Positions 25,515 through 26,900 of a DNA stretch of 64,000 nt are shown here, piece by piece. The stretch is from Dehalococcoidia bacterium (GTDB lineage Bacteria; Chloroflexota; Dehalococcoidia; Bin125): assembly GCA_963663235.2 (NCBI GenBank), contig CAXXNO010000001.1, positions 1-64,000 on the forward strand. Direction: 5' to 3'. The notes under the pieces are model-generated. The model saw only the letters and a list, made by a program, of their open reading frames with translations. It was not told the DNA's origin and did no database searches. The position numbers were made by a program, and so were the translations under genes. How positions within the stretch are numbered: position 1 is the first letter of the stretch; every line of letters starts with the position of its first letter.

Positions 25515-26408
25515 ATGCATCCCCACCTCAAACTCGACGAGCAACCGACGCTCAAGAACCCGGTGCTGGTGCTGGCCTGGGGCGGCTGGAGCGACGCCGG
25601 CAACGCGGCCACCCATGCCGCCCGCGCCGTCATCTCCGCGCTCAAGGCGACCCGCTTCGGCTCGATCGATCCGGAGGAGTACTACGACTTCACCGTGGCC
25701 CGCCCCTTCGCCCGCTACCGGGATGGGGAGCGCGAGATCGTCTGGCCCAGCACGGACTTCTTCCACTGCGCCGACGCCGGCCTCGAGCGCGATCTCGTGA
25801 TCGGGGTGGGCTCGGAGCCCAACAACCGCTGGCGCAGTTACATGGCGGCGATGCTGGACTTCGCGCGGACCGTCGACGTGGATCTGGTCGTCACCCTGGC
25901 GGCGGTCGCCGCGCCCGTGCCGCACACTCAGCCGGTGCGGGTCTGGGGCTCCGCCAACGACCCGGCGTTGGCCGACCGCTACGACATGCACCCGCCCGCC
26001 TACGAGGGGCCCACCGGCATGGTGGGCGCCTTCCACGACCACTGCCGCAAGCACGGCCTGGCCGCCATCAGCCTCTGGGCGGGCGTGCCCCACTACCTGG
26101 AGCGCATGAGCAACCCCGCCGCCGCGCTGGCGATCCTGGAGCGCTTGCAGGGCGTCATCGAGACCCCCTTGCCGCTCGCGCCCGTCCGCGCCGAGATCGC
26201 CCGCTTCGAGGCCGAGGTCCGCAAGGTCCTGGAGCAGAGCGAGGACCTCACCGCCTACGTGCGCCGTCTAGAGGAAGCCGTCGAGGATTCCGAGCCGACC
26301 CAAGAGCCCCCTTCGCAGGAGCTTCCCTCAGCGGAAGGGCTCATCGCCGACCTTGAGCAGTTCCTGCGCGGGCGGCGCCCGGACCAGCCAGGAGGATCGA
26401 ATGGTTGA
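25515..26408 (+). CDS. PAC2 (proteasome assembly chaperone) family protein
   Basis: AWGGWSDAGNAA, IDPEEYYDF...RP, EPNNRW, VPHT.P, YEGPTG, WAGVPHY. Confidence 0.88.
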   Translation: MHPHLKLDEQPTLKNPVLVLAWGGWSDAGNAATHAARAVISALKATRFGSIDPEEYYDFTVARPFARYRDGEREIVWPSTDFFHCADAGLERDLVIGVGSEPNNRWRSYMAAMLDFARTVDVDLVVTLAAVAAPVPHTQPVRVWGSANDPALADRYDMHPPAYEGPTGMVGAFHDHCRKHGLAAISLWAGVPHYLERMSNPAAALAILERLQGVIETPLPLAPVRAEIARFEAEVRKVLEQSEDLTAYVRRLEEAVEDSEPTQEPPSQELPSAEGLIADLEQFLRGRRPDQPGGSNG

Positions 26409-26853
26409 CACCCCATCCGACGCCGACCGCGAGGAGGCGTCCGAGAAAAGCCTCACCAAGATGTGGAAATTCGTCCGCACCTACGCCGAGAAGAGCGGCT
26501 CCTTCCTCCATCCGCAGCCCGAGATCACGGAGTTTCTGGTCATCGGCCTGGCCAAGCACGTCGATGAGTTGGGCCGCCCGCTGTGCCCGTGCAACTTCTA
26601 CGAGGACAAAAAGGAAGAGGTGAAGTCCGCCACCTGGATCTGCCCCTGCGACGAGATGCAGCGCTGGAAGTACTGCCACTGAATGCTCTTCTGCGATTCG
26701 GAAGGTCTTCCGATCACCGAGTACCTGCCAGAAGACCACGAGGGCCGCGAGGTGTACGGCCTCGTCAAGGATCCCGCGCCGGACAAAGGTCGCGCGATGG
26801 GCCGCCTGGAAGAGAAGCGCGGCCACGAGATCGTCAAGCGCAAAGGGCCCTAG
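26401..26853 (+). CDS. Ferredoxin:thioredoxin reductase catalytic subunit, selenocysteine-containing (CPC/CPC/CHU)
   Basis: GRPLCPC...WICPC...KYCH followed by TGA (26680-26682) exactly at the conserved CHC Cys. Frame continues MLFCDSEGLPITEYLPEDHEGREVYGLVKDPAPDKGR... to TAG 26851-26853 with GC3-rich codons; SECIS-like hairpin follows. Confidence 0.88.
26695..26715 (+). promoter_or_regulatory. Bacterial SECIS element
   Basis: GAT(T)CGGA-AGGTCT-TCCGATC hairpin; the apical loop AGGUCU starts 20 nt after UGA and matches the E. coli fdhF SECIS loop. Confidence 0.8.
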
Positions 26854-26900
26854 GCGCGGCGCACCGCAACGCCTCTCCGCGGCGCCCGTGGAGTCTCCTG

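What the first reader, a model, noticed from the sequence alone, without database searches (positions are those of the whole stretch)
26401..26853. Hidden selenoprotein: ferredoxin:thioredoxin reductase with Sec at the redox-active cysteine
Seen: the ORF track stops at KYCH*, but the TGA (26680-26682) falls exactly on the last Cys of the FTR CPC/CPC/CHC signature. The frame continues 56 more codons (MLFCDSEGLPITEYLPEDHEGREVYGLVKDPAPDKGR...), and a hairpin CGGA-AGGTCT-TCCG has its loop 20 nt downstream. Known: in FTR this residue (Synechocystis Cys87) is the cluster-interacting member of the Cys57-Cys87 disulfide, and AGGUCU is the SelB-binding loop of the E. coli fdhF SECIS. Inference: a 150-aa Sec-FTR using a selenenylsulfide next to a 4Fe-4S cluster, in a probably non-photosynthetic Chloroflexota, with no variable subunit gene beside it. 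Sec-FTR-like genes have been predicted computationally, but I know of no biochemical characterisation, and standard pipelines would truncate this gene.
Basis: partly seen in the sequence, partly recalled or inferred. Interest (0 to 1): 0.88.

Follow-up and report, generated by a model that had tools for sequence, protein, structure and literature searches.

The report
Selenocysteine-containing ferredoxin:thioredoxin reductase gene
This is a real but mis-annotated gene for an iron-sulfur disulfide reductase that uses selenocysteine in place of one active-site cysteine; the kind of protein was predicted in 2008, so it is a solid new member of a known family, not a new kind of thing.

Summary
Window 26401-26853 (+) encodes a 150-aa homolog of the ferredoxin:thioredoxin reductase (FTR) catalytic chain. 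Its in-frame TGA (26680-26682) aligns with Synechocystis Cys87, the last Cys of the CPC/CPC/CHC signature.

- **Sec machinery:** the genome has tRNA-Sec, selA, selB and a Sec-containing selD.
- **Conservation of the TGA:** it sits at the same codon in all 44 related genes I parsed, and Cys occupies that column in the Cys-type homologs.
- **Translation past the TGA:** the 56 downstream codons are under purifying selection (dN/dS 0.18, versus 0.19 upstream).
- **SECIS:** a bulged hairpin with a GGUC loop starts 12 nt after the TGA. It is conserved and has three compensatory pairs.
- **Reads:** contigs of three independent runs show no variant at the TGA.

Beyond the finding:
- The Sec form is common in this class (61 of 79 near-full-length matches).
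- The tree needs at least four Sec/Cys switches.
- Each of the three Sec lineages has its own hairpin, and one Cys revertant keeps a relic hairpin.
- Public gene calls truncate the gene at the TGA.

Sec-FTR was predicted from ocean metagenomes in 2008 and appears in reviews and NCBIfam. I found no biochemical study. Verdict: new member of a known kind, moderate interest.

The parts
26390..26395 (+). Shine-Dalgarno-like AGGAGG, 5 nt before the ATG
   Evidence: Read directly from the sequence.
26401..26853 (+). Complete coding sequence of the Sec-containing FTR catalytic-chain homolog (150 residues plus TAG stop)
   Evidence: PF02943 scores 91.1 bits. Full-length Cys-type homologs of 147-161 aa cover 97-99% of it. 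The N-terminus aligns with those homologs.
26584..26592 (+). First CPC motif (C62, C64), equivalent to Synechocystis Cys55 (cluster ligand) and Cys57 (exposed redox Cys)
   Evidence: Ungapped alignment to 1DJ7_A. The residue roles are recalled from the FTR literature, not from a call.
26641..26649 (+). Second CPC motif (C81, C83), equivalent to Cys74 and Cys76
   Evidence: Relatives have CPC or CAC here, with no link to Sec versus Cys.
26674..26682 (+). C-H-U motif (C92, H93, U94), equivalent to Cys85-His86-Cys87
26680..26682 (+). In-frame TGA read as selenocysteine (residue 94)
   Evidence: TGA at this codon in 44 of 44 parsed Sec-type relatives. Cys (TGC/TGT) in 18 of 18 Cys-type relatives. 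No variant in contigs of runs X1, X2 and X6.
26695..26715 (+). SECIS upper hairpin: 8 bp with a one-nucleotide bulge (26698 or 26699, depending on register) and apical GGUC loop at 26704-26707
   Evidence: RNAalifold recovers it independently. Pair counts on 54 distinct sequences: 95.8% of cells paired, 3 pairs with changes on both sides, covariation score 0.168 versus at most 0.060 when slid. Synonymous sites are nearly frozen in codons +1 to +12.
26698..26850 (+). Clade-specific C-terminal extension (about residues 100-150) that replaces the canonical FTRc C-terminus
   Evidence: The Pfam match ends at residue 101, profile position 89 of 106. The extension is conserved in 89 homologs and modelled at pLDDT 94-98 up to about residue 140. 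It has no counterpart in PDB FTRc chains.
25515..26408 (+). Upstream PAC2-family gene. Its TGA stop (26406-26408) overlaps the FTR start by 8 nt, so the two are probably co-transcribed
   Evidence: PF09754 scores 173.6 bits. It lies upstream of the FTR gene in 23 of 23 same-family loci but only 6 of 80 named loci. It also shows that TGA is an ordinary stop in this genome.

Best explanation
The gene encodes a single-subunit, 150-residue homolog of the FTR catalytic chain. The UGA at codon 94 is decoded as selenocysteine by SelB and tRNA-Sec, recruited by a hairpin that starts 12 nt downstream.

**Shown:**
- Family membership and fold.
- Exact correspondence of U94 to Cys87.
- A complete Sec machinery in the genome.
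- Conservation of the TGA and of the translated downstream frame.
- A conserved, covarying hairpin after the TGA.

**Inferred from the established FTR mechanism (recalled from Dai et al. 2000 and 2007, not read here):**
- C62, C81, C83 and C92 hold a 4Fe-4S cluster.
- C64 and U94 form a selenenylsulfide in place of the Cys57-Cys87 disulfide.
- One electron from a ferredoxin cleaves that bond. The selenolate of U94 then attaches to the cluster while C64 attacks the substrate disulfide, most likely one of the genome's thioredoxins.
- A second electron frees U94, which resolves the mixed disulfide.

Selenium therefore sits at the cluster-interacting, resolving position and not at the exposed nucleophile. 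The enzyme works without the variable subunit of phototroph FTR. A conserved C-terminal extension packs on the core instead.
For: **Family and fold**
- PF02943 scores 91.1 bits.
- The AlphaFold model has mean pLDDT 94.6.
- It superimposes on 7bzk_A and 1dj7_A at 0.9-1.0 A over 88-89 columns, with 43-45% identity.

**Residue mapping:** ungapped alignment to 1DJ7_A.

**Sec machinery:** tRNA-Sec 70.9 bits with anticodon TCA; selA 551.8, selB 359.1 and selD 357.8 bits. selD reads VCGG-TGA-GSK.

**The TGA is not an error**
- 23 of 23 full-length same-family matches have one TGA.
- 44 of 44 parsed Sec genes have it at the same codon.
- Contigs of three runs from three studies show no variant there, while the flanking sites 26679 and 26683 do vary.

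**Translation past the TGA**
- Cys homologs run continuously through this position.
- dN/dS is 0.18 for codons +13 to +45 and 0.19 for codons -14 to -1.

**SECIS**
- Consensus hairpin from RNAalifold.
- Pair 22:36 is GC 35, UG 14, CG 4. Pair 21:37 is UA 49, CG 3. Pair 19:39 is GC 38, AU 3, UA 1.
- dS in the hairpin codons is 0.47, against 1.23 further downstream.
- GGAAGGUCUUCC is in 40 of 44 Sec genes and 1 of 18 Cys genes.
- Two other Sec lineages carry different hairpins at the same place.

**Partners:** three thioredoxins score over the family cut-off in the genome. A bona fide trxB lies divergently next to the FTR gene in 10 of 47 related loci.
Against: - No direct evidence of selenium incorporation, of the full-length protein, or of transcription. 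No RNA run was listed.
- The single-sequence fold is not significant (z = -1.9).
- The lower stem is poorly kept (helix 1: 90% paired, 3 of 5 pairs broken in some sequences).
- Five of the eight upper-stem pairs show no compensatory change: three never vary, which says nothing for or against the structure, and two depart only by unpaired cells.
- The related genomes are kin, so counts and the Mann-Whitney p value overstate independence.
- No Rfam family matched.
- NCBIfam's selenoprotein FtrB model scores only 42.9 bits against a cut-off of 160.
- The electron donor and the substrate are inferred from homology only. Single-subunit FTR-like proteins such as Methanosarcina FDR (4tpu) may use other disulfide substrates.
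- The genome also has a TrxR-like flavoprotein (309 bits), so this enzyme need not be the main thioredoxin reductase.
Confidence: 0.88

Rival explanations
1. The TGA is a true stop. The gene is a pseudogene, or it makes a 93-residue truncated protein, possibly with a separate 56-residue product from the ATG at 26683.
For: Table 11 gives exactly these two ORFs. Public pipelines call the 93-138 aa form. TGA does act as a stop in this genome, for example for the PAC2 gene at 26406-26408.
Against: - A truncated product would lack the Cys87-equivalent and could not form the redox pair.
- The TGA and an intact downstream frame are kept in 44 of 44 parsed genes from several families.
- dN/dS downstream is 0.18.
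- In most relatives the codon after the TGA is CTG, not ATG, so a separate downstream gene has no conserved start.
- Cys forms are single continuous proteins.
Confidence: 0.03
2. The TGA is a sequencing or assembly error for TGC/TGT.
For: A single-base change separates TGA from TGC/TGT. The source is a 14-contig draft genome.
Against: - Contigs of runs X1, X2 and X6 (three studies; one may be the source sample) cover 26680-26682 with no other letter. The neighbouring sites 26679 and 26683 are polymorphic there.
- The same TGA is in 23 of 23 same-family genomes, several of them single-contig assemblies.
Confidence: 0.01
3. The UGA is read through, but not (or not always) as Sec. Examples would be Cys inserted by the Sec pathway when selenium is scarce, or near-cognate Trp/Cys read-through, so that the working enzyme is in effect a Cys form.
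For: Nothing in the sequence data tells which residue is inserted. The Cys form is clearly functional, since it is the majority form outside this class (43 of 80 named loci), and one lineage reverted to TGC (L079).
Against: - The complete Sec machinery is present, and selD itself is a selenoprotein.
- The dedicated hairpin is kept under strong constraint, including at synonymous sites. That is hard to explain unless SelB-dependent decoding is selected.
- Three separate Sec lineages each keep a hairpin.
Confidence: 0.06

Closest known systems
FTR catalytic subunit (FTRc) of cyanobacteria and chloroplasts (PDB 1DJ7, 2PU9, 7BZK)
   Same: Same Pfam family and the same core fold (about 1 A over 86-89 columns, 43-45% identity). 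Same spacing of the six Cys positions and the His of the CHC motif.
   Different: - Sec replaces Cys87.
- There is no variable subunit. FTRV is reported to be exclusive to oxygenic phototrophs (PMC9025218, passages read).
- The C-terminal 50 or so residues are a different, clade-specific extension.
- The organism has no reaction-centre gene.
Predicted Sec-containing FTR homologs: Zhang & Gladyshev 2008 (GOS metagenome, PMC2398784) and NCBIfam NF041072 'FtrB family double-selenoprotein'
   Same: Same idea: an FTRc homolog with UGA at a redox-active Cys and a downstream bacterial SECIS. The reviews give the motif as CxU (PMC9312934, PMC13188914; table passages read).
   Different: - NF041072 models a form with two Sec, at both redox Cys positions. 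This protein has one Sec, keeps TGC at C64, and scores 42.9 bits against a cut-off of 160.
- The 2008 paper reports two sequences, one of them with two Sec. I could not see its figures or supplements, so I cannot say how close its other sequence is to this clade.
Single-subunit FTR-like disulfide reductases: Methanosarcina acetivorans FDR (4TPU) and the Desulfotalea Grx/FDR fusion (7PWE)
   Same: FTRc-like core used without a variable subunit in non-phototrophs. Both are Foldseek hits (E 1.6e-4 and 1.0e-3).
   Different: These are much more distant (22-26% identity). They are fused to rubredoxin or glutaredoxin domains and use Cys only.
E. coli fdhF SECIS
   Same: A hairpin inside the coding region that starts 11-12 nt after the UGA, with a single bulged nucleotide on the 5' arm and G-U in the apical loop (PMC8659212, passages read; here).
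   Different: - The stem is longer (8 bp).
- The loop G-U lies 3 nt further from the UGA.
- The bulged base is A or C in most relatives. It is U in the window's copy in the RNAfold register.
- That the fdhF loop also reads GGUC is recalled, not from a call.

Membership tests
FTR catalytic chain (Pfam PF02943, FeThRed_B) | Profile match above the curated cut-off | tested here: met
   91.1 bits against a cut-off of 22; residues 18-101 on profile positions 2-89 of 106.
FTR catalytic chain (Pfam PF02943, FeThRed_B) | CPC...CPC...CHC signature: four cluster ligands plus the redox pair Cys57/Cys87 | tested here: met
   An ungapped alignment to 1DJ7_A places C62, C64, C81, C83 and C92 on Cys55, 57, 74, 76 and 85, and U94 on Cys87. 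The sixth position is Sec, not Cys.
FTR catalytic chain (Pfam PF02943, FeThRed_B) | FTRc fold | tested here: met
   Model pLDDT 94.6. Rmsd 0.9-1.0 A to 7bzk_A and 1dj7_A over 88-89 columns.
Classical heterodimeric FTR of oxygenic phototrophs | Variable subunit (PF02941) present | tested here: not met
   No match in the 92%-complete genome, while the Synechococcus control is found. So this is an FTRc-like single-subunit enzyme, not the classical heterodimer.
Classical heterodimeric FTR of oxygenic phototrophs | Ferredoxin-dependent reduction of thioredoxin; 4Fe-4S cluster | not testable with these tools
   Needs the purified protein.
Bacterial selenoprotein gene | In-frame UGA aligned with Cys in homologs, with a conserved translated frame downstream | tested here: met
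Bacterial selenoprotein gene | SECIS hairpin directly downstream of the UGA with G in the apical loop | tested here: met
Bacterial selenoprotein gene | tRNA-Sec, SelA, SelB and SelD in the genome | tested here: met
   all are over the family cut-offs.
Bacterial selenoprotein gene | Selenium shown in the protein | not testable with these tools
   Needs 75Se labelling or mass spectrometry.
NCBIfam NF041072, FtrB family double-selenoprotein | Score above the curated cut-off (160 bits) | tested here: not met
   42.9 bits.
NCBIfam NF041072, FtrB family double-selenoprotein | Two Sec residues, at both redox-active Cys positions | tested here: not met
   There is one TGA only, and C64 is TGC. None of the rows listed has two TGAs.

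The most novel reading that the evidence does not exclude
In this class selenium entered FTR at least three separate times, always at the cluster-interacting Cys87 position and never at the exposed nucleophile Cys57. Each time it built a new SECIS at the same spot in the mRNA. That would mean the selected property is the selenium-iron contact in the one-electron intermediate (or the resolving step), not general thiol reactivity. These enzymes would then be natural 4Fe-4S proteins with a catalytic Fe-Se(Cys) bond. They may be tuned for oxygen tolerance or for a different donor potential in aerobic, FTRV-less Dehalococcoidia, with the conserved C-terminal extension taking over the shielding role of the variable subunit.
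Probability: 0.25. Interest if true: 0.7.

Novelty: new member of a known kind. Interest (0 to 1): 0.42.

Why it matters
**Annotation.** A whole clade of Dehalococcoidia FTR genes is stored in public databases as 93-138 aa fragments that lack the catalytic residue. NCBIfam's only selenoprotein FtrB model does not catch them. A dedicated single-Sec model would fix many records.

**Enzymology.** FTR is the textbook case of disulfide cleavage by an iron-sulfur cluster. A natural variant with selenium exactly at the cluster-interacting position offers a built-in spectroscopic and kinetic probe of that intermediate. My searches found no biochemical study of it.

**Evolution.** This is a compact case of recurrent Cys-to-Sec conversion: three different SECIS solutions at the same mRNA position, plus one Sec-to-Cys revertant that still carries its SECIS.

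Tried and rejected
- **Rfam.** No SECIS family matched the window at gathering threshold. At E <= 10 on 26600-26800 the only hit was a chance match to HOTAIR_3. Rfam has no model that fits this hairpin, so this says nothing either way.
- **Single-sequence folding.** RNAfold preferred another register and gave a weak z-score. I relied on comparison across genomes instead.
- **Lower stem.** The lower stem I first drew (A2 columns 8-12 with 43-47) is not well kept, and I do not claim it.
- **Expression.** No RNA holder was listed.
- **Neighbour analysis by ORF clustering.** It was swamped by shadow ORFs of GC-rich DNA. Only the trxB, PlsX-like, methyltransferase and CsoR-like clusters looked real, and only trxB was checked. 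DUF547 downstream is not conserved (3 of 103 loci). PAC2 upstream is family-level synteny only.
- **Cys four residues after Sec.** I considered that it (LFCD) is a Sec-specific partner residue. It goes with the GGUC-type hairpin lineage (40 of 44 Sec forms, and also the Cys revertant L079). It is absent from the other two Sec lineages and is Thr in L132 and L133. It is therefore not required for Sec, and I left its role open.
- **CPC versus CAC in the second motif.** It does not track Sec.
- **Literature.** Searches for FTR plus 'variable subunit' plus Chloroflexi, FTR plus selenenylsulfide, and fdhF/SECIS/'apical loop'/bulged found nothing. Balsera et al. 2013 (Planta) was seen only as a citation in PMC9025218. 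Supplements and figures of PMC2398784 were not visible and may show how close its one-Sec sequence is to this clade.
- **Homodimer test.** Not done (see below).
Full report
**1. Observation**

The + strand of 26401-26853 reads from an ATG (with AGGAGG 5 nt upstream) through CPC (residues 62-64), CPC (81-83) and C-H-TGA (92-94; TGA at 26680-26682). It then continues in the same frame for 56 codons to TAG at 26851-26853. Table 11 splits this into a 93/109-aa ORF and a 56-aa ORF.

**2. What the protein is**

- Pfam assigns residues 18-101 to PF02943, the FTR catalytic chain (91.1 bits, cut-off 22).
- phmmer against PDB sequences gives an ungapped 87-residue alignment to Synechocystis FTRc (1DJ7_A) with an offset of -7. 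C62, C64, C81, C83, C92, H93 and U94 therefore correspond to Cys55, Cys57, Cys74, Cys76, Cys85, His86 and Cys87.
- An AlphaFold2 model built on 89 homologs has mean pLDDT 94.6. Its core superimposes on 7bzk_A and 1dj7_A at 0.9-1.0 A over 88-89 columns.
- The last 50 or so residues do not match the canonical FTRc C-terminus. The Pfam match stops at profile position 89 of 106, and Foldseek alignments that include the tail rise to about 10 A rmsd. This tail is nevertheless strongly conserved among homologs and confidently modelled.

**3. Is the UGA decoded as Sec?**

*Machinery.* The 2.75-Mb, 92%-complete genome has all four components, each over its family cut-off:
- tRNA-Sec: 70.9 bits, and ARAGORN calls tRNA-SeC with anticodon TCA.
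- selA: 551.8 bits.
- selB: 359.1 bits.
- selD: 357.8 bits, with its own in-frame TGA at the active-site position VCGG-U-GSK.

*Homologs.* 1550 proteins match the read-through product. The best are 147-161 aa and cover 97-99% of it. In 17 of 17 aligned homologs the TGA column is Cys, and the downstream segment LLF..EGLPITEYLPEDHEGREIYG..DP.PDKGRA is nearly invariant.

*Relatives.* Of 24 other genomes of the same family, all 24 have a match. 23 matches are full-length, and all 23 carry exactly one TGA. The 24th is a contig-end fragment of residues 97-148. I parsed 24 same-family genes (including the window's) and 20 genes from other families of the class. All 44 have the TGA at the CH-TGA codon.

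*Selection.* Among the 44 Sec genes, codons +13 to +45 after the TGA have dN/dS 0.18 (784 of 946 pairs usable). Codons -14 to -1 have 0.19. The downstream frame is therefore translated.

*Reads.* Logan contigs of four runs from four studies were laid on 26301-26900.
- X1, X2 and X6 cover the TGA, and none shows another letter there.
- 26679 (C>T, synonymous) and 26683 (A>C, Met to Leu) vary, because related strains co-occur.
- X3 has no cover beyond 26680.
- One of these runs may be the source sample.

*TGA as a stop.* TGA is also an ordinary stop here: the upstream PAC2 gene ends at 26406-26408.

**4. The SECIS**

*Sequence conservation.* The 24 same-family genes share a near-invariant stretch after the TGA (91% mean column identity). 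GAT, GAA, GGT and CTT are fixed at codons +5, +7, +8 and +9 in 22-24 of 24 genes. These are AT-ending codons in a GC-rich genome.

*Consensus structure.* RNAalifold independently predicts an 8-bp stem with a one-nucleotide bulge and a GGUC tetraloop. In window coordinates the hairpin is 26695-26715 and the loop is 26704-26707.

*Pair counts.* I used 54 distinct sequences of this hairpin type. Of 57 distinct Sec-gene sequences, 3 with other hairpin types were left out.
- 95.8% of cells pair.
- Three pairs change on both sides: 22:36 (GC 35, UG 14, CG 4, one unpaired), 21:37 (UA 49, CG 3, two unpaired) and 19:39 (GC 38, AU 3, UA 1, twelve unpaired).
- The covariation score is 0.168, against a shuffle mean of 0.055 (0 of 500 shuffles reach it) and at most 0.060 for partners slid by 1-3 columns.

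*Synonymous sites.* Synonymous divergence in codons +1 to +12 is 0.47, against 1.23 further downstream.

*Register in the window's copy.* RNAfold puts the bulge at U26698. In most relatives it is the next base (A or C).

*Comparison with E. coli fdhF.* As described in PMC8659212 (passages read), the fdhF SECIS has an upper hairpin 11 nt after the UGA, a bulged U17, and G23/U24 in the loop. The geometry here is the same kind: it starts 12 nt after the UGA, has one bulged base, and has G-U in the loop 3 nt further along.

*Caveats.*
- Three of the eight pairs never vary, and two more depart only by unpaired cells.
- The sequences are kin.
- The lower stem is not well kept.
- The single-sequence fold is unremarkable.
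- No Rfam model matches.

**5. Distribution and evolution**

*Class scan.* I sampled 401 genomes of the class, and 103 have a match at E <= 1e-20. Of the 79 rows with a near-full-length match, 61 carry one TGA (three of them also a TAA near the end of the match) and 18 carry none. No row has two TGAs. One of the 61 is from a genome flagged unpublished (G259). The TGA position was verified for 44 genes only.

*Named records.* Among the 80 best named records, 37 have TGA. All 37 are titled Chloroflexota, Chloroflexi, Chloroflexia, Dehalococcoidia or 'uncultured bacterium' MAGs. The other 43 have TGC or TGT, including all records titled Nitrospiraceae, Methylomirabilota/Rokuibacteriota, Myxococcota, Latescibacterota, Ignavibacteria and Thermochlorobacter. 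The two collections overlap, so these counts are not additive.

*Tree.* I built a maximum-likelihood tree of 62 genes (44 Sec, 18 Cys) with the Sec/Cys column masked. It needs at least four changes of state, and starred branches force four:
- A main clade of 41 rows (40 Sec).
- L064, alone among Cys forms.
- A trio in family f34 (L071-73), sister to Cys forms.
- One Cys gene (L079) nested deep inside the main Sec clade.

*Hairpin types follow the tree.*
- The main clade has GGAA-GGUC-UUCC. Two members have GGC as the loop.
- L064 has GAUGG-CGUGC-CCAUC.
- The f34 trio has AUGGGGA-CGGGC-UCCCCAU. All are at the same place.
- L079 is TGC but keeps the full GGUC hairpin, as does L114. I read this as a recent Sec-to-Cys reversion with a relic SECIS.

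*Stability and direction.* In a 36-nt window the mean MFE is -9.6 kcal/mol for the 44 Sec genes and -6.3 for the 18 Cys genes. Kin inflate the p value. Three gains plus one loss is the simplest reading. The direction of change is an inference, because the tree is midpoint-rooted.

**6. Context**

- The PAC2-family gene upstream overlaps the FTR start by 8 nt. It is upstream in 23 of 23 same-family loci but only 6 of 80 named loci. DUF547 downstream (convergent) recurs in 3 of 103 loci.
- In 10 of 47 named Chloroflexota loci, a thioredoxin-disulfide reductase gene lies just upstream and divergent. It scores 344.8 bits on TIGR01292, cut-off 343.45.
- The window's genome has three thioredoxins over the family cut-off and a TrxR-like gene at 309 bits, below the cut-off.
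- It has no FTR variable subunit and no reaction-centre protein.
- FTRV is reported to be exclusive to oxygenic phototrophs (PMC9025218, passages read). Its absence is therefore expected for a bacterial FTRc homolog.

**7. Mechanism (inferred)**

By homology, four Cys hold a 4Fe-4S cluster, and C64 with U94 form a selenenylsulfide. Ferredoxin would deliver single electrons. After the first, the selenolate of U94 would bind the cluster while C64 attacks the substrate disulfide. After the second, U94 would resolve the mixed disulfide. Selenium at this position should make both the cluster adduct and the resolving attack easier, because of its lower pKa and its better nucleophile and leaving-group behaviour. 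Nothing here tests that.

**8. What is known**

- Zhang and Gladyshev (2008, PMC2398784; abstract and passages read) reported FTR as a new selenoprotein family. They based it on two GOS sequences, one with two Sec at both redox Cys positions, with 10 Cys homologs. They asked for experimental verification.
- Two reviews list the family with the motif CxU (PMC9312934, PMC13188914; table passages read).
- NCBIfam NF041072 models the two-Sec form. This protein fails it (42.9 bits against 160).
- BSepDB (PMC13326102, passage read) lists Dehalococcoidia MAGs among selenoprotein-rich bacteria.
- Full-text searches for FTR with selenoprotein/selenocysteine (three papers) and with selenenylsulfide (none) found no biochemical work. 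The library omits most subscription journals, so this is not proof of absence.

**9. Verdict**

This is a genuine selenoprotein gene, correctly spotted, and a single-Sec member of an already predicted selenoprotein family. Three things are new here:
- Its extent in Dehalococcoidia.
- The systematic truncation in public gene calls: 107 of the 120 best hits to the N-terminal part are 93-138 aa, and 8 of 8 sampled end at KYCH.
- The recurrent, position-specific Cys/Sec switching, with three SECIS solutions and a relic SECIS.

Interest is moderate.

Noticed in passing
G000:C4:103776-104699 (TGA at about C4:103806): The genome's selD is itself a selenoprotein gene (VCGG-TGA-GSK). It is followed by hairpins, one of them with a G-G-U apical loop about 30 nt after the TGA.
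   Followed up: partly
G000:C4:239795-239888 and C4:239990-240283 (both on the - strand): The best-scoring thioredoxin gene of the genome (132.9 bits) lies about 100 nt from the tRNA-Sec gene, on the same strand.
   Followed up: no
L079 (G081:C14) and L114: These FTR genes have TGC at the Sec position but an intact GGAAGGUCUUCC hairpin downstream. They are nested inside the Sec clade, so they look like a recent Sec-to-Cys reversion with a relic SECIS.
   Followed up: partly
L053:1468-1797 (-) = G000:C4, around 333052-333279: A second, divergent FTR-like gene in the same genome. It is 109 aa, has CPC/CVC/CFC motifs and no in-frame stop, and scores 25.3 bits on PF02943.
   Followed up: partly
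L095:1905-2903 (-) and 9 other named loci: A thioredoxin-disulfide reductase gene (TIGR01292, 344.8 bits) lies divergently next to the Sec-FTR gene in 10 of 47 related loci. It is not next to it in the window.
   Followed up: partly
window 26692-26694 (residue 98): A Cys four residues after Sec (LFCD) is present in 40 of 44 Sec forms, where Cys forms usually have Val. It tracks the GGUC-hairpin lineage and not Sec as such, and it is Thr in L132 and L133. Whether the constraint acts on the protein or on the RNA is open.
   Followed up: partly
rows of family f16 (e.g. G039:C1:892029-892460): FTR homologs of another family match in two in-frame pieces (query 10-72 and 63-140). This suggests an insertion or local duplication around the first CPC motif. 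All are Cys forms except G343, which shows one TGA.
   Followed up: no
window 25515-26408 and 26401: The PAC2-family gene and the FTR gene overlap by 8 nt (ATGGTTGA), an arrangement kept across the family. No functional link is evident.
   Followed up: partly
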